From positions 1-4,074 of the IMG/VR virus record IMGVR_UViG_3300029241_000103: a DNA stretch of 4,074 nt, one strand, 5' to 3'. This DNA is from a virus (lineage: Duplodnaviria > Heunggongvirae > Uroviricota > Caudoviricetes). Below the pieces are notes generated by a model. That model was given only the letters and a program-made list of their open reading frames with translations. It had not been told where the DNA came from and made no database searches. Positions 1 through 4,074 of this stretch are shown piece after piece; positions within the stretch are counted from its first letter, which is position 1; each line of letters begins with the position of its first letter. Made by a program: the position numbers and the translations under genes.

Positions 1-170
1 TGATGCCTGAAAAAACTGGTGTTTACTGGAATTCTCGGTTTAGCATTGCTCCTATGCTCGATAGGATGTACCGTTTTTGAAAAACAAGTAGTTATACACT
101 TTGTGGGAGCCTATTGGGAACCCGGTGTTTTCATTTCAAGGTGTAATCCATGCGGGGCATCAGAATGAGA

Positions 171-176
171 TATAAT
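171..176 (+). promoter_or_regulatory. Candidate sigma70 -10 hexamer (TATAAT) upstream of the 206..742 ORF
   Basis: Exact consensus TATAAT at 171-176, about 30 nt upstream of the ATG at 206. No good -35 is found at 16-18 bp spacing and there is no TG extension, so this is a -10 match only. Confidence 0.3.
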
Positions 177-205
177 GAGATTTTTAGTGTTCCGCTTGAG
201 AGTCT

Positions 206-742
206 ATGATGCTTACCCTAGACGAGATAGGTCAATCTGTACGTAACAATATCCAGTTGATTATTGATCATGTCGGCTTACCTCTTGCTGTTGGTCCGCT
301 CAGTGATGATGATTACAAGATTCTGTGTGGTGGCTATGGTGAGCTTGAATGGGACTATGCGTTAAGCACCTATGGCAACTCCAGAGAAAAGTATGAGTTC
401 TGCATAAAACTTGTTCAGCAAGGTCGGGTTCAGGGAATACCATCAGGAGCAGCAATTTGTGTTTATGGGGTTGAAGAAAACATCTTTCGTATCCATATGA
501 TCGAAAGGTTTTCTAGAGAAGATGAATCTCACCCATTGAAAGGGCGCATGGTTTTACTCACTCTTATGAGTGCTTTTATATTTTGTAAAGCTGTTGAATG
601 TAAAGTTGTCCACATTGTAGAGCCAGTACCAGAACTGGTGCAGTATTACGAGTCTTTTGGTTTCCGCATGGAACAGTGCGGTTATGTGATGTCTGCAGTC
701 ATTGATGAGCTGCAGGATATCTTTCTTAAATTTGCTCAGTAG
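206..742 (+). CDS. Hypothetical protein, 178 aa, with a GNAT-like C-terminal motif (possible divergent acyl/acetyltransferase fold)
   Basis: Uninterrupted ORF ending at TAG 740-742. A weak SD (GAGAG, 198-202) precedes tandem ATGs at 206 and 209; the spacing favours 209. The segment PELVQYYESFGF resembles GNAT motif B (A-x-x-x-Y-E-x-x-G-F), and the predicted strand/helix order fits a GNAT fold. The glycine-rich motif A (R/Q-x-x-G-x-G/A) is not clearly present (HPLKGRMVLL). Looks AT-richer than the phage genes by eye. Confidence 0.55.
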   Translation: MMLTLDEIGQSVRNNIQLIIDHVGLPLAVGPLSDDDYKILCGGYGELEWDYALSTYGNSREKYEFCIKLVQQGRVQGIPSGAAICVYGVEENIFRIHMIERFSREDESHPLKGRMVLLTLMSAFIFCKAVECKVVHIVEPVPELVQYYESFGFRMEQCGYVMSAVIDELQDIFLKFAQ

Positions 743-759
743 GTATAGACGAGAAGGGT

Positions 760-772
760 CTACAAATTGTAG
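760..772. promoter_or_regulatory. 13-bp palindrome CTACAAATTGTAG (6-bp arms, 1-nt centre), candidate protein-binding site
   Basis: Read directly: CTACAA (760-765), A, TTGTAG (767-772) is a perfect inverted repeat. It overlaps a 5-bp stem hairpin TAGAC-N7-GTCTA (746-762) just after the stop of the 206..742 ORF. Confidence 0.3.
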
Positions 773-847
773 GATACCCGTCCAGATTACCTTAAAGGTA
801 CATCTATGGCAGTCGTTTTGTGCTTAAACTACTAAGAAACGATGTCA

Positions 848-894
848 CCAATCGACATGATCGATTGGCATAAGTTAGCTAAACAAGCTAGCTT
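848..894 (+). promoter_or_regulatory. Candidate operator and promoter upstream of the small ORF
   Basis: Inverted repeat CCAATCGA-N5-TCGATTGG (848-868) overlaps a -35-like TTGGCA (865-870). After an 18-nt spacer comes a -10-like TAGCTT (889-894). The palindrome AGCTAGCT (886-893) lies in the spacer and -10 region. Confidence 0.3.
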
Positions 895-938
895 TAAAGA
901 GAGGGTTAGAGACGCCTTTACTGTCTCGGGAGTTTTCT

Positions 939-1112
939 ATGAAAGATCAAAAAGCAACCAAGCCACAGGTTAAGTTCGACACAATGAAAGCATTCGCAGG
1001 TATGGGTGCTGCTGTTGAAGTTCTGATGAAGGCTGCTCCTAATGCGTTCACTCACGCTACTGTCTCTGGTAAAGAGCAGCAGGGTAAGCTTCGTCGTCGC
1101 AAAGCAGCATGA
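939..1112 (+). CDS. Small hypothetical protein, 57 aa (MKDQKATKPQVKFDTMKAFAGMGAAVEVLMKAAPNAFTHATVSGKEQQGKLRRRKAA), basic C-terminal tail
   Basis: Not in the supplied ORF track (presumably below its length cutoff); translated by hand. ATG at 939 follows SD GGGAG (928-932) with a 6-nt spacer. Stop is TGA at 1110-1112. Codon choice is typical of well-expressed enterobacterial genes (GGT, GCT, CGT, GTT, CTG, AAA, GAA). An intrinsic terminator follows 23 nt downstream. Confidence 0.5.
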   Translation: MKDQKATKPQVKFDTMKAFAGMGAAVEVLMKAAPNAFTHATVSGKEQQGKLRRRKAA

Positions 1113-1131
1113 TCATAGCTGGTGCTTTTTG

Positions 1132-1160
1132 AAAACCCGCCTTTAGGCGGGTTTTTTCTT
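1132..1160. terminator. Rho-independent (intrinsic) terminator, probably bidirectional, between convergent genes
   Basis: Stem CCCGCC (1136-1141), loop TTTA, stem GGCGGG (1146-1151), then TTTTTT (1152-1157) on the plus strand. AAAA (1132-1135) precedes the stem, so the minus strand reads hairpin then TTTTC. The minus-strand gene's stop (TAA, 1160-1162) sits immediately upstream of the hairpin in that orientation. Confidence 0.8.
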
Positions 1161-1441
1161 TAGTGATGTTCTTTGCCCTTCTGTTTGCTTGTTCTGACCT
1201 GTTCCCACTCGATACGTCCTTCTTCTCGTCTTTTGTCTATGTATTCCGCAAGATCCTGAATATTGATGCAACGTTTTGCTTTTTGTGATGTGCCGATGCG
1301 ATATGTTGGAACGGGCAACTTACAAGCGTTTGCTTTTGCTTCTGCCGTGGCTGGACTCATGCCAAAGTACTTTTGGCTAACTGCTGAGAGTTCAATGTTA
1401 GGGGTATTGAATTCAGCCATCAGTAAAAACAAGGTGTTCAT
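1160..1441 (-). CDS. PrtN-family / excisionase-like small DNA-binding protein (about 93 aa)
   Basis: The N-terminus MNTLFLLMAEF... and the segment ...KLPVPTYRIGTSQKAKRCINIQDLAEYID match, from memory, the conserved pattern of PrtN (pyocin activator) / phage Xis-like proteins. Start chosen as ATG at 1441, preceded by GGAG with a 6-nt spacer. The longer GTG-initiated reading to 1468 was not used. Confidence 0.65.
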   Translation of the reverse strand: MNTLFLLMAEFNTPNIELSAVSQKYFGMSPATAEAKANACKLPVPTYRIGTSQKAKRCINIQDLAEYIDKRREEGRIEWEQVRTSKQKGKEHH

Positions 1442-1477
1442 AATTTTCTCCATCAAAACCGGCTGCACCCGGGAAAA

Positions 1478-2050
1478 TCATAATTCTGTGCTGGTGGCAG
1501 GAATTAATTTCTGCCAGATAGCGGAAACATATTTTGCCTGATGACGGGCATCGGCCAGGGCGTTGTGCCGTTCGCCATCGAAAGGCATGTCCATTTTGGG
1601 GTCGAATCCGATGGAACGCCCAAGCGTAACGATCGTGCGTACATCGTGGTCATTCCAGTATGCCCACGGGCAGATTTGTCCTGCTCGCTCATAAGCTCCA
1701 CGTAAAATTACGTTGTCGAAGGTGGCCCCGTTACCCCAGACTTTTAAATATTTCGTATTGGCTGCGTGCCGGTTAATGAAATGATTTAGTTCTGAGAGAG
1801 CATCGCTGATCGACAAAGTATCATCAATACAGATTGCAGCTCGTGCTTCAGGGCTTTGTTTCAACCACCACAGGATGGTATCGCCGTCAGGTGTAGCTCC
1901 TTGCCCCATAGCACTTTCCAGGCTAACAACTGTATAGAATTCTTGTCCGATGTCTCCGGTTTCTGGAGTGAAGAACACCGCGCCAATGGAAACGATCGGT
2001 GCATCCTTATTTTTCCCCATCGTCTCAAGGTCGATCATTAAGTTGTTCAT
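1478..2050 (-). CDS. DEDDh-type (DnaQ-like) 3'-5' exonuclease, phage-encoded, about 190 aa
   Basis: All three Exo motifs can be read: Exo I IDLETMG (D-x-E), Exo II WGNGATFDNVIL (FD), Exo III HNALADARH (H-x-x-x-x-D). Strong SD AGGAGGT lies 6 nt before the ATG at 2050. The ATG overlaps the upstream gene's TGA (minus strand reads TGATG). Confidence 0.85.
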   Translation of the reverse strand: MNNLMIDLETMGKNKDAPIVSIGAVFFTPETGDIGQEFYTVVSLESAMGQGATPDGDTILWWLKQSPEARAAICIDDTLSISDALSELNHFINRHAANTKYLKVWGNGATFDNVILRGAYERAGQICPWAYWNDHDVRTIVTLGRSIGFDPKMDMPFDGERHNALADARHQAKYVSAIWQKLIPATSTEL

Positions 2051-2826
2051 CACTTCACCTCCTGCGGCGGTTCCGGTAGCGGCATCCAGTGAGTTGCTTG
2101 CTCAATACCATTACCCGGCTTAATCGTTGCATCTCCGCGCCGAAAGGTGCTTCCGGTATAGCGTGCGGAGCATATTAGCGGTTCAACCAGAGAGCTATCG
2201 AAATTCACCGAAATAAGCACGTTCTGGCCCTTTTCAGGCATTCGCTCACTACAGCTTATCCAACCATCCGGAGTTACCGGAGAGTTGCCATTTACATCGA
2301 AGTTTGGCTCTGCGTCCTGAACCAGGAGGATGTAACCATTCTTGGCTGTATCAAGTTCTAACGCCTCGGTGACGGTGCCGAAATAGCGATTACCTAAATC
2401 AGCATCACAAGTGCTTACATCAATGGAAACTTCCATGCCTTCGATTAATTCTGGCAAGTTGTAAGTTTGGCTTACAGGTTGGCTACCCTGAAGCATGGCG
2501 GCACGGCAGGCGTTCCAGCCATCAGCATATGTTTCAGTTACACCGTCGAGATGGCAGGTAAGCAAATCCATTTCATCAAGCACTACCAGCGCTGGCGGCG
2601 CGGTGTAAAGCTGGTGCGTTCCATCAGGCAGCGAGTGACCTACATACTCACCGAACCCGTCAACACACATGCACCCATCCTCAATAATGCATGACGCCAC
2701 TGGCTCTGCTTCCAGCGATGCCAGTGCAATTTCATACGACCGGCGCTCAATATTGTCTCGAACGTCCAGGCTGCCTATGCGCTCTTTGATTTCTTTAATC
2801 AGTTCTTTGTCGGTGAAAGTTGTCAT
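2050..2826 (-). CDS. Phage protein with C-terminal DUF551 domain, 258 aa
   Basis: The C-terminal region WISCSERMPEKGQNVLIS...ATHWMPLPEPP matches the DUF551 hallmark (THWMPLPEPP) as I recall it from enterobacterial prophage proteins. ATG at 2826 with SD GAGGA about 7 nt upstream. The acidic, Cys-containing N-terminal 150 aa is unassigned. Confidence 0.75.
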   Translation of the reverse strand: MTTFTDKELIKEIKERIGSLDVRDNIERRSYEIALASLEAEPVASCIIEDGCMCVDGFGEYVGHSLPDGTHQLYTAPPALVVLDEMDLLTCHLDGVTETYADGWNACRAAMLQGSQPVSQTYNLPELIEGMEVSIDVSTCDADLGNRYFGTVTEALELDTAKNGYILLVQDAEPNFDVNGNSPVTPDGWISCSERMPEKGQNVLISVNFDSSLVEPLICSARYTGSTFRRGDATIKPGNGIEQATHWMPLPEPPQEVK

Positions 2827-2829
2827 GTG

Positions 2830-3117
2830 TTAGTCCTCATCCACTTCAACGTCATCTTTCAGCGTGATGCCGTGCCAATCATCAGCCCAACTGGTTAGCC
2901 CTGGCGCATCAATGCTAGGCATATAGACGCTTGCAGTGTGGTAGCCCTTATCGTTATCAATGCTGGCAACGTGCTCGCCGTTGTATGCGCTCAGCGTGTC
3001 CAGGACGCTATAAAACTTTCCTCCGGCTGCCCTGAAATCCTTTACAGCCTTCACAAGGCGATTCCACGCTTTTTCCTGTTCTGGCGTCAGGTCGATTAAT
3101 TCCTGCAAAGTTGCCAT
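2830..3117 (-). CDS. Hypothetical phage protein, 95 aa, strongly acidic C-terminus (…LKDDVEVDED)
   Basis: Start at ATG 3117, preceded by SD AAGGAGAG. It sits 1 nt after the TGA of the upstream gene (minus strand reads TGATATG). The longer track ORF (to 3279) would overlap the Ead/Ea22-like CDS in another frame and was rejected. Confidence 0.7.
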   Translation of the reverse strand: MATLQELIDLTPEQEKAWNRLVKAVKDFRAAGGKFYSVLDTLSAYNGEHVASIDNDKGYHTASVYMPSIDAPGLTSWADDWHGITLKDDVEVDED

Positions 3118-3118
3118 A

Positions 3119-3790
3119 TCACTCTCCTTTGATGCGAATGCCAGCGGCGCGCTCGGCTTCACTTTGTTCCCAAAACCACTTGTGAAGCGCCATAAGCTTT
3201 TCGTCAATCGGTGCATATTTGCGATTAAAGTAGGCCTGAGCATCTTTCTCAGATTCGTCCGGTAATTCGCCAGGGCCAAACAGTGTGTTATAAATCCATG
3301 CCAGTCCGCTTTTAGCGTCGCCAGTTGCCTGCCATTCGATAATGGCAGCCTGCATGACCAGAATGTTTTTCCCGATTAATAGGTCCAGTTCTTTGTACCG
3401 GTTGCGGATGTATGCATTCTCGCTTTGTAATTTTGCGTTGCGCTTCTCTGCGGCTTCCAGCTTGGCTTCTGCATCTTTGGCTCGCATCTGCCAGTTGATA
3501 GCGATGTCGATAACGCTGTTAGCACAACTGGACTCGTTCTCTTCGGCAGCTTTAGCTTCAGAAAGCTCATCAAGCAATCCAAGAACAACAGTTGGCGTGG
3601 CGAGCGTGATAAAACGCATATTGCTCATATGCTCTTCATCGCTAACATCATCGCCAGCCTCGACCGCTGCCATGTGCTGAACATAGCCGCTATCACAGGT
3701 ATTCCAGATTGCCCCTGCCTCGTGACCCCATTCACCATGTAGTGCTTTTTCTGCCGCCTCACGCAGTGCCTGGTAATTAATTTCGCTCAC
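3119..3790 (-). CDS. Ead/Ea22-like family phage protein, 223 aa, with central coiled-coil-like region
   Basis: The N-terminus MSEINYQALREAAEKALHGEW... resembles Ead/Ea22-like proteins of lambdoid prophages (from memory). The central segment EAKAAEE...AKDAEAKLEAAEKRNAKLQSENAYIRNRYKEL looks coiled-coil. Start is GTG at 3790, with a near-perfect SD AAGGAGG 6 nt upstream. GTG overlaps the upstream stop (GTGA). Confidence 0.7.
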   Translation of the reverse strand: MSEINYQALREAAEKALHGEWGHEAGAIWNTCDSGYVQHMAAVEAGDDVSDEEHMSNMRFITLATPTVVLGLLDELSEAKAAEENESSCANSVIDIAINWQMRAKDAEAKLEAAEKRNAKLQSENAYIRNRYKELDLLIGKNILVMQAAIIEWQATGDAKSGLAWIYNTLFGPGELPDESEKDAQAYFNRKYAPIDEKLMALHKWFWEQSEAERAAGIRIKGE

Positions 3791-4035
3791 TGGTTGCCTC
3801 CTTTACGGACTTTACGGATCTGCGCTGCGATGCGCGAAAAAAAAGACTCCCGCGTATGACTGTTAAGAGCTGGCGCGAACGCTGCGTTAAGAACGGCAGC
3901 ATCACAGCCGTCATCGATATAGAGCGCAATTTTTTTCTCCAGGCGCGCTTTGGCTTCCTGCAACTGCATACCCCGGCACGCACGCGGGATATACTCAGCA
4001 ATTTGAGCGATAGATTTTTCGTTCTGTTTAAACAT
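3787..4035 (-). CDS. Hypothetical phage protein, 82 aa
   Basis: ATG at 4035, preceded by SD GAGGTGA. Stop TGA (3789..3787) overlaps the GTG start of the next gene. Translation MFKQNEKSIAQIAEYIPRACRGMQLQ... has no family I can name. Confidence 0.6.
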   Translation of the reverse strand: MFKQNEKSIAQIAEYIPRACRGMQLQEAKARLEKKIALYIDDGCDAAVLNAAFAPALNSHTRESFFSRIAAQIRKVRKGGNQ

Positions 4036-4074
4036 GCTTCACCTCGATAGGCTTGATGGTGTCGATCAGTAGTC
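4028..4074 (-). CDS. 3' end of an upstream minus-strand CDS (partial; C-terminal residues …LLIDTIKPIEVKHV)
   Basis: One minus-strand frame is open from the window edge to TAA at 4030..4028, which overlaps codons 2-3 of the 82-aa gene (ATGTTTAA). Only 14 codons are visible, and a second frame is also open here, so the call is tentative. Confidence 0.3.
   Translation of the reverse strand, partial: LLIDTIKPIEVKHV

What the first reader, a model, noticed from the sequence alone, without database searches (positions are those of the whole stretch)
3787..4035. Homopolymer tracts (A8 at 3837-3844 and T7 at 3930-3936 on the plus strand) inside the 82-aa gene
Runs of 7-8 identical bases in a short phage gene are potential slippage sites, either for polymerase or ribosomal frameshifting or as mutational hot spots. 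An alternative-frame ORF (3777..4001) spans the same region. The shifted products would differ only modestly, so functional frameshifting is speculative.
Basis: seen in the sequence. Interest (0 to 1): 0.2.

Follow-up and report, generated by a model that had tools for sequence, protein, structure and literature searches.

The report
Indel-prone base runs in phage gene
Two runs of identical bases in a small prophage gene of unknown function are ordinary by-products of codon choice that act as natural insertion/deletion hot spots, producing inherited frameshifted versions of the gene in a few percent of related prophages, with no sign of a programmed frameshifting device.

Summary
The 82-aa gene (3787-4035, minus strand) contains T8 (codons TCT TTT TTT TCG) and A7 (GAG AAA AAA ATT) on its coding strand, and its +1 frame is open (3777-4001).

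Tract lengths are not invariant. In a tract-independent sample of 117 related prophage copies, 5 had T7 or T9 and 2 had A6 or A8, and 7 of the 8 single-base indels in the conserved part of the gene fell in these 15 bases. In finished E. coli genomes, T7:T8 was 3:108 and A6:A7 was 1:326. T7, A6 and a frame-restoring A6+T6 allele each recur with identical DNA in independent samples, so they are inherited alleles and not only read errors.

The T8 sits exactly where the conserved core (residues 1-66) ends and a hypervariable tail begins, so T-tract shifts only swap the tail.

Nothing supports programmed frameshifting:
- there is no downstream RNA structure;
- the upstream SD-like motif is not conserved;
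- the -1 frame stops after 8 codons;
- distant homologs keep Phe-Phe but break the T run, and have stops in the +1 frame.

Verdict: an ordinary replication-slippage hot spot, probably with low-level non-programmed transcriptional slippage at T8. Low interest.

The parts
3787..4035 (-). 82-aa gene of unknown function (PHROG 1344), predicted to be a small four-helix protein. The conserved core is residues 1-66 and the C-terminal tail is hypervariable.
   Evidence: ORF. No Pfam match. phrog_1344, E = 8e-51, unknown function. Alignment A1 shows invariant F65 F66 followed by a tail of variable sequence and length. AlphaFold model has pLDDT 87 and four helices. Fold searches gave no informative match.
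3837..3844 (-). T8 tract on the coding strand (A8 on +), in codons TCT TTT TTT TCG = S64 F65 F66 S67, in the U_UUU_UUU register. It is the main indel hot spot and sits at the core/tail boundary.
   Evidence: Sequence. T7, T9, T10 and T6 alleles. In finished E. coli genomes, T8 108 records against T7 3 records. Broken in distant homologs.
3930..3936 (-). A7 tract on the coding strand (T7 on +), in codons GAG AAA AAA ATT = E33 K34 K35 I36. It is the secondary indel hot spot. A shift here replaces more than half of the protein.
   Evidence: Sequence. A6 in L102 and A8 in L189. A6 allele P0113 confirmed on DNA. In finished E. coli genomes, A7 326 records against A6 1 record.
3777..4001 (-). Open +1 frame (74 codons). 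It is read from the A tract onward by natural A6 alleles and from the T tract onward by T7 and T10 alleles, and it ends at a TAA (3777-3779) 8-10 nt downstream of the ead start codon (3788-3790).
   Evidence: Proteins P0113, P0020 and P0121. P(open by chance) = 0.05-0.08. 2-4 stops in this frame in all distant homologs.
3812..3814 (-). TAA stop in the -1 frame, 8 codons after the T8. A T9 allele, or a -1 slip, gives a 74-aa product ending FFFAHRSADP.
   Evidence: Read from the sequence. T9 alleles L082 and L174 translate to ...SFFFVHRSADP*.
3787..3790 (-). GTGA overlap: the TGA stop of the 82-aa gene (3787-3789) overlaps the GTG start of the downstream ead/Ea22-like gene (3788-3790). This is a translational-coupling arrangement that is conserved only in frame 0.
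   Evidence: Ead_Ea22 Pfam hit for 3119-3790. A GTGA or ATGA overlap is kept in nearly all of the 36 tail haplotypes.
3797..3803 (-). AAGGAGG Shine-Dalgarno sequence for the ead gene. It is embedded in the last codons of the 82-aa gene and encodes the conserved 'GG' of the tail.
   Evidence: Sequence. GGAGG is conserved across the tail haplotypes while the surrounding tail residues vary.
3801..3818 (-). 9-bp tandem duplication (TCCGTAAAG x2 on the coding strand) specific to this window. It gives ...IRKVRKGGNQ (82 aa) where relatives have ...IRKGGNQ (79 aa).
   Evidence: Alignment: all 83 relatives have one copy. No exact match in IMG/VR. No E. coli complete genome covers 80% or more of a 67-nt query spanning it.
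4028..4035 (-). ATGTTTAA overlap: the start codon of the 82-aa gene overlaps the TAA stop (4028-4030) of the upstream 67-aa gene, which runs off the window. The operon is tightly packed.
   Evidence: Sequence. The upstream 67-aa gene overlaps by 8 nt in related loci.

Best explanation
The two tracts are incidental products of codon choice for conserved residues. Lys-Lys-Ile is written AAA AAA ATT, and Ser-Phe-Phe-Ser is written TCT TTT TTT TCG. They behave as replication-slippage (indel) hot spots in a small accessory gene of the early-left operon of lambdoid prophages and phage-plasmids. Slippage by 1 or 2 bases has repeatedly produced heritable frameshift alleles. Because the T8 lies at the junction between the conserved 66-residue core and an unconstrained 13-residue tail, T-tract shifts merely swap the tail: the +1 tail is RASQRRSVKEATSE.., and the -1 tail is [A/V]HRSADP. 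These alleles persist and even spread in lineages of E. coli and Klebsiella prophages. A-tract shifts scramble residues 36 onward, are rarer, and are sometimes followed by a second shift at the T tract that restores frame 0 (A6+T6, A9+T9). The following are shown here: the tracts, their register, the concentration of indels in them, recurrence on different haplotypes, inheritance, non-conservation in distant homologs, and the absence of frameshift stimulators. The following are inferred: that the mechanism is DNA polymerase slippage, that tail swaps are near-neutral, and, from published reporter data, that E. coli RNA polymerase also slips at the T8 at a low non-programmed level (reporters gave about 10%), so a minor share of protein from a T8 allele may carry the alternative tails.
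For: Indel concentration: in 117 usable copies retrieved with an anchor between the tracts, and therefore independent of tract length, 7 of the 8 one-base indels within positions 1-210 of the gene lie in the 15 tract bases. My binomial estimate is about 7e-8. Independent recurrence: the four T7 copies sit on four different flanking haplotypes. Length dependence: in finished E. coli genomes T7:T8 is 3:108 and A6:A7 is 1:326. Inheritance: the T7 allele P0121 has identical DNA in 3 NCBI isolate assemblies plus 21 similar places. The A6 allele P0113 is identical in 6 samples, including MEGAHIT metagenome contigs. The A6+T6 allele P0101 is identical in 6 of 7 SRA runs, with one unrelated substitution in the seventh. 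A Klebsiella T7 allele, P0169, sits on complete chromosomes and is indexed in 126 blocks. About 33 of 120 protein-cluster representatives show a frame change at a tract. Core/tail boundary: alignment A1. Tail haplotypes are variable but keep the frame-0 stop/start overlap. Codon-choice null: P(at least one run >=7) = 0.65. Distant homologs break the T run while keeping Phe-Phe. Literature: UUUUUUU and AAAAAAA are under-represented in all frames in E. coli genes, attributed to transcriptional slippage or indel mutation (PMC4066793). E. coli RNA polymerase needs at least 7 T or 8 A to slip, and gave about 10% rescue at T8 (PMC6260861).
Against: Some variants are surely sequencing or assembly errors: singletons on short Logan or ENA contigs, an N inside the tract in L042, and T9 in a 13.8x MAG contig (L082). 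The raw frequency of variants is therefore over-estimated. No read-level data, mutation-rate measurement or expression data were available. Neutrality of the tail swap is inferred from variability, not tested. The +1 frame being stop-free (P = 0.05-0.08) and the existence of frame-restoring double shifts are mildly suggestive of something more than pure neutrality.
Confidence: 0.8

Rival explanations
1. Programmed -1 ribosomal frameshifting at U_UUU_UUU produces a second, 74-aa product (core plus F-AHRSADP) at a set ratio.
For: The T8 is in the X_XXY_YYZ register. U_UU.U_UU.U belongs to the shift-prone, under-represented heptamers in E. coli (PMC4066793). A GGGAG SD-like motif lies 2 nt upstream of the T8 in the window.
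Against: The 81 nt from the tract onward fold no better than shuffles (MFE -13.1 kcal/mol, z = +0.77). The SD-like motif is GAAAG or GAGAG in many relatives, and it is too close to the heptamer for dnaX-type -1 stimulation (the spacing rule is from my own knowledge of dnaX). The -1 frame stops after 8 codons and only replaces a tail that is already unconstrained. Distant homologs encode Phe-Phe as TTC TTT or TTT TTC, with T runs of 6 or fewer. Without stimulators, heptamers of this kind give roughly 0.1-0.5% frameshifting (PMC4066793).
Confidence: 0.03
2. Purposeful transcriptional slippage: RNA polymerase stutters on the T8 (and A7) so that one allele yields a regulated mixture of tail variants, as in IS-element transposases, Thermus dnaX or Shigella mxiE.
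For: In GFP reporters, E. coli RNA polymerase slips detectably on 7 or more T, with about 10% rescue at T8 by both insertion and deletion (PMC6260861). The +1 frame is open to just beyond the gene end. Both tail frames occur as natural alleles.
Against: Known purposeful sites are typically 9 or more A/T, and their length is conserved among homologs, which is the criterion stated in PMC1088944. Here the run is 8, it is absent from distant homologs, and the +1 frame carries stops there. A7 is below the A8 threshold reported for E. coli RNA polymerase. Neither alternative tail shows sequence conservation beyond what frame 0 and the embedded SD impose. Some slippage probably happens, but as noise.
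Confidence: 0.07
3. The apparent tract-length polymorphism is entirely a sequencing or assembly artefact of homopolymers, and the tracts are invariant in nature.
For: Homopolymers are classic error sites. L042 has an N in the tract. T9 is seen in a 13.8x MAG contig. Many double-shift variants come only from Logan assemblies of unknown platform.
Against: Identical variant alleles recur in independent samples and platforms: NCBI isolate assemblies, MEGAHIT Illumina metagenomes, and complete chromosomes. The T7-type cluster holds 61 distinct sequences, with single members on up to 38 contigs. Variants are also present in RefSeq complete genomes and are annotated as normal CDS.
Confidence: 0.05
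4. The tracts form a contingency (phase-variation) switch: heritable length changes toggle the protein, or, by moving the stop codon relative to the GTGA overlap, toggle translational coupling to the downstream ead/Ea22 gene.
For: There is length polymorphism at both tracts. Frame 0 alone preserves the stop/start overlap with ead. The -1 frame stops 21 nt upstream of the ead start and the +1 frame stops 8 nt downstream of it. Frame-restoring double shifts (A6+T6, A9+T9) re-create the native stop even though the core is scrambled.
Against: Alleles are stable within lineages, with identical DNA across many samples. About 97% or more of finished-genome copies carry the canonical lengths. Tracts of 7-8 bases in mismatch-repair-proficient enterobacteria are far shorter than classic contingency tracts (own knowledge). 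The tracts are not conserved in distant homologs. The function of the gene is unknown.
Confidence: 0.05

Closest known systems
Homopolymer (mononucleotide-run) replication-slippage hot spots in bacterial coding sequences, and the 'pseudo-pseudogene' class of Baranov et al. 2005 (PMC1088944)
   Same: A/T runs inside a gene. Indels are concentrated in the run. Orthologs in different strains differ by one base in the run. The longer run is the more variable. AAAAAAA and UUUUUUU are generally selected against in E. coli genes (PMC4066793).
   Different: The runs here are 7-8 bases, shorter than the 9 or more analysed by Baranov et al. The T tract happens to lie at the boundary to a dispensable tail, so frameshift alleles stay annotated as normal proteins and spread.
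E. coli dnaX -1 programmed ribosomal frameshift (A_AAA_AAG with an upstream SD and a downstream hairpin), and phage lambda G/GT tail-chaperone frameshifting
   Same: A slippery heptamer in the correct register (U_UUU_UUU), and a shorter -1 product, as with the dnaX gamma subunit.
   Different: There is no downstream hairpin (z = +0.77), no conserved SD at stimulatory spacing, and no conservation of the heptamer or of the trans-frame product. The expected efficiency is at background-plus level only.
Programmed transcriptional slippage sites (IS-element A9 runs, Thermus thermophilus dnaX A9, Shigella mxiE T9)
   Same: A poly-T run in the sense strand at which E. coli RNA polymerase can add or drop a U. 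The alternative frames are open for a short distance.
   Different: The run is 8 bases and not 9 or more. Its length is not conserved across the family. The alternative-frame products are not conserved. No evidence of use.
Contingency loci with homopolymeric tracts (Haemophilus, Neisseria, Campylobacter phase variation)
   Same: Heritable ON/OFF or variant alleles generated by tract-length change.
   Different: The tracts are much shorter, alleles are stable within lineages, the canonical length dominates at 97% or more, and no selectable surface or defence phenotype is known.

Membership tests
Programmed -1 ribosomal frameshift site | Slippery X_XXY_YYZ heptamer in the zero-frame register | tested here: met
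   UC U_UUU_UUU CG: the zero-frame codons are TCT TTT TTT TCG. The A7 tract (GAG AAA AAA ATT) is not in register.
Programmed -1 ribosomal frameshift site | Stimulatory RNA structure (hairpin or pseudoknot) 5-9 nt downstream | tested here: not met
   RNA fold of 3770-3850(-): MFE -13.1 kcal/mol against -15.1 +/- 2.6 for shuffles, z = +0.77.
Programmed -1 ribosomal frameshift site | Conserved upstream SD-like stimulator at suitable spacing | tested here: not met
   GGGAG lies 2 nt upstream of the T8 in the window but is GAAAG, GAGAG or GGAAT in many close relatives.
Programmed -1 ribosomal frameshift site | Heptamer conserved among homologs beyond what the protein requires, and a conserved trans-frame ORF | tested here: not met
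   Distant homologs use TTC TTT, TTT TTC, or TTT TTT with non-T flanks (T run of 6 or fewer). The -1 frame ends after 8 codons.
Programmed -1 ribosomal frameshift site | Trans-frame protein detected | not testable with these tools
   Needs mass spectrometry or a reporter assay.
Programmed transcriptional slippage site | A/T run long enough for efficient RNA polymerase slippage (typically 9 or more in bacteria) | tested here: inconclusive
   T8 is above the minimum of 7 T reported for E. coli RNA polymerase (about 10% in reporters, PMC6260861) but below the 9-nt class of PMC1088944. A7 is below the reported A8 minimum.
Programmed transcriptional slippage site | Run length conserved across homologs, and both frames encode conserved products | tested here: not met
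   The run is absent from homologs at 62-77% identity, and the +1 frame has 2-4 stops there. The alternative tails are not conserved.
Programmed transcriptional slippage site | Heterogeneous mRNA population at the run | not testable with these tools
   Needs cDNA sequencing.
Replication-slippage mutational hot spot | Indels concentrated in the run relative to the rest of the gene | tested here: met
   7 of 8 one-base indels in positions 1-210 fall in the 15 tract bases, in a tract-independent sample of 117 copies.
Replication-slippage mutational hot spot | Independent recurrence on different haplotypes, and inheritance of the variants | tested here: met
   Four T7 copies on four flanking haplotypes. 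Identical T7, A6 and A6+T6 DNA in multiple independent samples. A Klebsiella T7 lineage.
Replication-slippage mutational hot spot | The longer run is more variable than the shorter one | tested here: met
   Finished E. coli genomes: T7/(T7+T8) = 3/111 against A6/(A6+A7) = 1/327. IMG/VR sample: 5 T-tract variants against 2 A-tract variants.
Contingency (phase-variable) locus | Tract-length polymorphism among isolates | tested here: met
Contingency (phase-variable) locus | High-frequency reversible switching within a lineage, with a selectable phenotype | not testable with these tools
   Indirect evidence is against it: alleles are identical across many samples of a lineage, and the canonical lengths dominate. 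The function of the gene is unknown.

The most novel reading that the evidence does not exclude
The T8 (with the A7) is a low-frequency heritable and transcriptional 'tail switch'. By moving the stop codon of this gene relative to the GTGA stop/start overlap and the embedded Shine-Dalgarno, tract length would tune translational coupling to the downstream ead/Ea22 gene. The frame-restoring double shifts (A6+T6, A9+T9), which scramble the protein core yet re-create the native stop, would then reflect selection on that coupling and not on the protein.
Probability: 0.05. Interest if true: 0.4.

Novelty: new member of a known kind. Interest (0 to 1): 0.15.

Why it matters
Mostly it matters as a caution. 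This small prophage gene is annotated in public databases under many lengths (66-144 aa) and with three different C-terminal tails, and almost all of that diversity traces to one- or two-base changes in two homopolymers, plus mosaic 3' ends. Recognising this avoids treating the variants as distinct protein families or as evidence of recoding. It is also a clean natural illustration that a frameshift hot spot is tolerated when it lies at the boundary to an unconstrained tail, and that a first frameshift can be compensated at a second tract. If the coupling idea in the novel case were true, it would be a modest new example of gene-expression tuning in lambdoid early operons.

Tried and rejected
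1. The first retrieval of relatives by protein similarity suggested near-invariant tracts. I rejected it as biased, because the best tblastn hits are by construction the intact alleles. I replaced it with an anchor-pattern retrieval that does not depend on tract length.
2. The search for related loci with distant proteins P0074 and P0058 returned almost only close relatives. I used exact look-ups instead.
3. I looked for an intrinsic terminator or promoter using the T or A runs on either strand. None was found in 3500-4074.
4. The Rfam scan of the whole window found nothing.
5. Fold searches of the AlphaFold model against PDB and BFVD gave only generic helical bundles and uncharacterised phage proteins, with best E = 0.048. 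No function could be assigned.
6. The whole-window search in complete E. coli genomes found no record covering 80% or more, so the exact source and allele context of the window could not be identified.
7. I considered a prfB-like +1 frameshift (SD-like GGGAG 2 nt upstream of the T8). I rejected it because the motif is not conserved and there is no slow or stop codon in the A site (UCG).
8. I considered an overlapping gene in the +1 frame. I rejected it because of the stops in distant homologs and the non-synonymous changes in that frame.

Full report
**Observation.** The + strand has A8 at 3837-3844 and T7 at 3930-3936. Both lie inside the 82-aa ORF at 3787-4035 on the minus strand, and the 74-codon ORF at 3777-4001 on the same strand is its +1 frame. 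On the coding strand the tracts are T8, in codons TCT TTT TTT TCG (S64 F65 F66 S67), and A7, in codons GAG AAA AAA ATT (E33 K34 K35 I36). The T8 is therefore in the U_UUU_UUU register and the A7 is not in the X_XXY_YYZ register. After the T8, the -1 frame stops after 8 codons (TAA at 3812-3814). The +1 frame runs 19 codons to a TAA at 3777-3779, whose stop lies 8-10 nt past the start codon of the next gene.

**Chance.** These are the only two runs of 7 or more bases in the window, against 0.89 expected from shuffles. If the protein is kept and synonymous codons are drawn from local usage, a run of 7 or more appears in 65% of draws, a run of 8 or more in 30%, and two runs in 8.7%. The +1 frame is stop-free in 5-8% of draws. 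The tracts are thus what K-K-I and S-F-F-S give with AAA and TTT codons. They are not a statistical anomaly.

**Context.** The gene has no Pfam family and belongs to PHROG 1344, of unknown function. It sits in a tightly packed minus-strand operon typical of the early-left region of lambdoid prophages.
- Its ATG overlaps the stop of an upstream 67-aa gene (ATGTTTAA).
- Its TGA overlaps the GTG of an Ead/Ea22-like gene (GTGA), and the AAGGAGG for that gene is embedded in its last codons.
- Further downstream come a DUF551 protein, a 3'-5' exonuclease and a PrtN-like protein.
- Relatives occur in 872 of 5426 complete E. coli genomes, on chromosomes and on plasmids of about 100 kb, and in Stx-converting phages, mEp460 and Klebsiella phages.
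- An AlphaFold model from a 27-sequence alignment is a confident four-helix protein (pLDDT 87), with no informative structural neighbours.

**Are tract lengths invariant?** A first set of 83 relatives seemed to say so, but those were the best protein matches and so were biased towards intact alleles. The protein database told a different story. Many variants keep residues 1-66 and then switch to ...FF-RASQRRSVKEATSE (T7)...FFF-RASQ (T10)...FFF-[A/V]HRSADP (T9) or ...FF-VHR (T6). Some shift at the A tract and return to frame 0 at the T tract (A6+T6, for example P0101 from phage vB_EcoM-813R1; and A9+T9, P0109). About 33 of 120 cluster representatives carry such a change. That figure over-weights rare variants.

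**Unbiased counts.** I retrieved 119 IMG/VR contigs with a DNA anchor lying between the tracts, of which 117 were usable.
- 5 had a T-tract length change: four T7, each on a different flanking haplotype, and one T9.
- 2 had an A-tract change: A6 and A8.
- Within positions 1-210 of the gene, 7 of the 8 single-base indels fell in the 15 tract bases. My binomial estimate is about 7e-8.
- In RefSeq complete E. coli genomes, allele-specific queries gave T8 108 against T7 3 records for the window's haplotype, and A7 326 against A6 1.
- PGAP annotates a T7 allele as an ordinary 82-aa protein that overlaps ead by 14 nt.

**Real or artefact?** DNA look-ups show inheritance.
- The T7 allele P0121 is identical in three NCBI isolate assemblies, with 21 similar places not shown, and is indexed in 63 blocks.
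- The A6 allele P0113 is identical in six samples, including MEGAHIT metagenome contigs, and is indexed in 89 blocks.
- The A6+T6 allele is identical in six of seven SRA runs, with one unrelated substitution in the seventh.
- A Klebsiella T7 allele, P0169, lies on complete chromosomes and is indexed in 126 blocks.
- Some singletons, an N inside the tract in L042, and a T9 in a 13.8x MAG contig are probably errors, so raw frequencies are upper bounds.

**Why T-tract variants persist.** The alignment of intact homologs has invariant F65 F66, after which sequence and length are hypervariable. Among 36 tail haplotypes, the residues vary (R/C, A/E/T, I/L, R/H, K/Q, N/S), while the embedded GGAGG and the frame-0 stop/start overlap (GTGA or ATGA) are kept. 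Frame 0 is therefore the native frame, the tail is constrained mainly by signals for the next gene, and a shift at the T8 only swaps an unconstrained tail. An A-tract shift replaces 47 residues and is about ten-fold rarer in finished genomes.

**Programmed recoding?**
- The 81 nt from the T8 onward fold no better than shuffles (z = +0.77).
- No terminator or promoter uses the runs, and there is no Rfam match.
- The GGGAG just upstream is GAAAG or GAGAG in many relatives.
- Homologs at 62-77% identity keep Phe-Phe but write it TTC TTT, TTT TTC, or TTT TTT with non-T neighbours, giving runs of 6 or fewer. They have 2-4 stops in the +1 frame, and the A run is kept only where K-K-I is.
- By the criterion of Baranov et al., that run length is conserved among homologs (PMC1088944), purposeful slippage is not indicated.

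**Published numbers that set expectations.** U_UU.U_UU.U alone gives roughly 0.1-0.5% -1 frameshifting, and UUUUUUU and AAAAAAA are under-represented in E. coli genes in all frames (PMC4066793). E. coli RNA polymerase needs at least 7 T or 8 A to slip and gave about 10% rescue at T8 in reporters (PMC6260861). Low-level, non-programmed transcript heterogeneity at the T8 is therefore likely, but it is an inference.

**Verdict.** The 'functional frameshifting' half is not supported. This is a new instance of a well-known phenomenon, and interest is low. The least conventional reading not excluded is that tract length tunes translational coupling to ead, and that frame-restoring double shifts reflect selection on that coupling. 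I put this at about 5%.

Noticed in passing
window 3801-3818 (minus strand): A perfect 9-bp tandem duplication (TCCGTAAAG x2 on the coding strand) just upstream of the AAGGAGG for ead. It adds V-R-K to the tail, giving 82 aa against 79 aa in all 83 relatives first fetched. It is absent from IMG/VR by exact search and from the complete E. coli genomes. It is itself a slipped-strand type event and appears private to this sequence.
   Followed up: yes
window 1131-1156 (+), between the convergent genes 939-1112 (+) and 1160-1468 (-): A strong terminator-like hairpin (11 pairs, GAAAACCCGCC TTTA GGCGGGTTTTT, then TCTTT), with A-rich sequence on its 5' side. It could serve both convergent transcription units. 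The only other run of 6 T in the window is its U-tract.
   Followed up: partly
related loci, about position 225-232 of the 240-nt reference gene (six loci, protein type P0037): Six copies share a one-base deletion in GGCAACCAG, giving GGCACCAG, just before the stop. This removes the GTGA stop/start overlap and extends the ORF into ead (...IRKGGTSER..). It is a third, non-homopolymer frameshift allele that is also inherited.
   Followed up: partly
L239-L242 (Klebsiella chromosomes) against L218: In one widespread Klebsiella prophage lineage the T7 allele is the form annotated as a 'MULTISPECIES' 87-aa protein (P0169, indexed in 126 blocks). Its extended +1 tail overlaps the start of the small downstream ORF by about 37 nt.
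   Followed up: yes
L042 (IMG/VR contig of 44,510 bp, the same length as phage mEp460): The deposited sequence has an N as the last base of the T tract. This is direct evidence that the run caused base-calling ambiguity in at least one reference-type phage record.
   Followed up: no
whole window 1-4074: No complete E. coli genome covers 80% or more of the window. The best is 78% at 98.5% identity, in three pieces. The window is therefore a mosaic combination of early-region modules not represented as such in that collection. The gene family also occurs on plasmids of about 95-120 kb, presumably phage-plasmids (277 of 1081 places).
   Followed up: partly
L112 and L089 (relatives): These are the two frameshifting indels in the sample that lie outside the tracts: a G insertion 2 nt after the T8 (CGTGGCATC) and a 5-nt deletion in the tail. 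Both are again confined to the variable tail region.
   Followed up: partly
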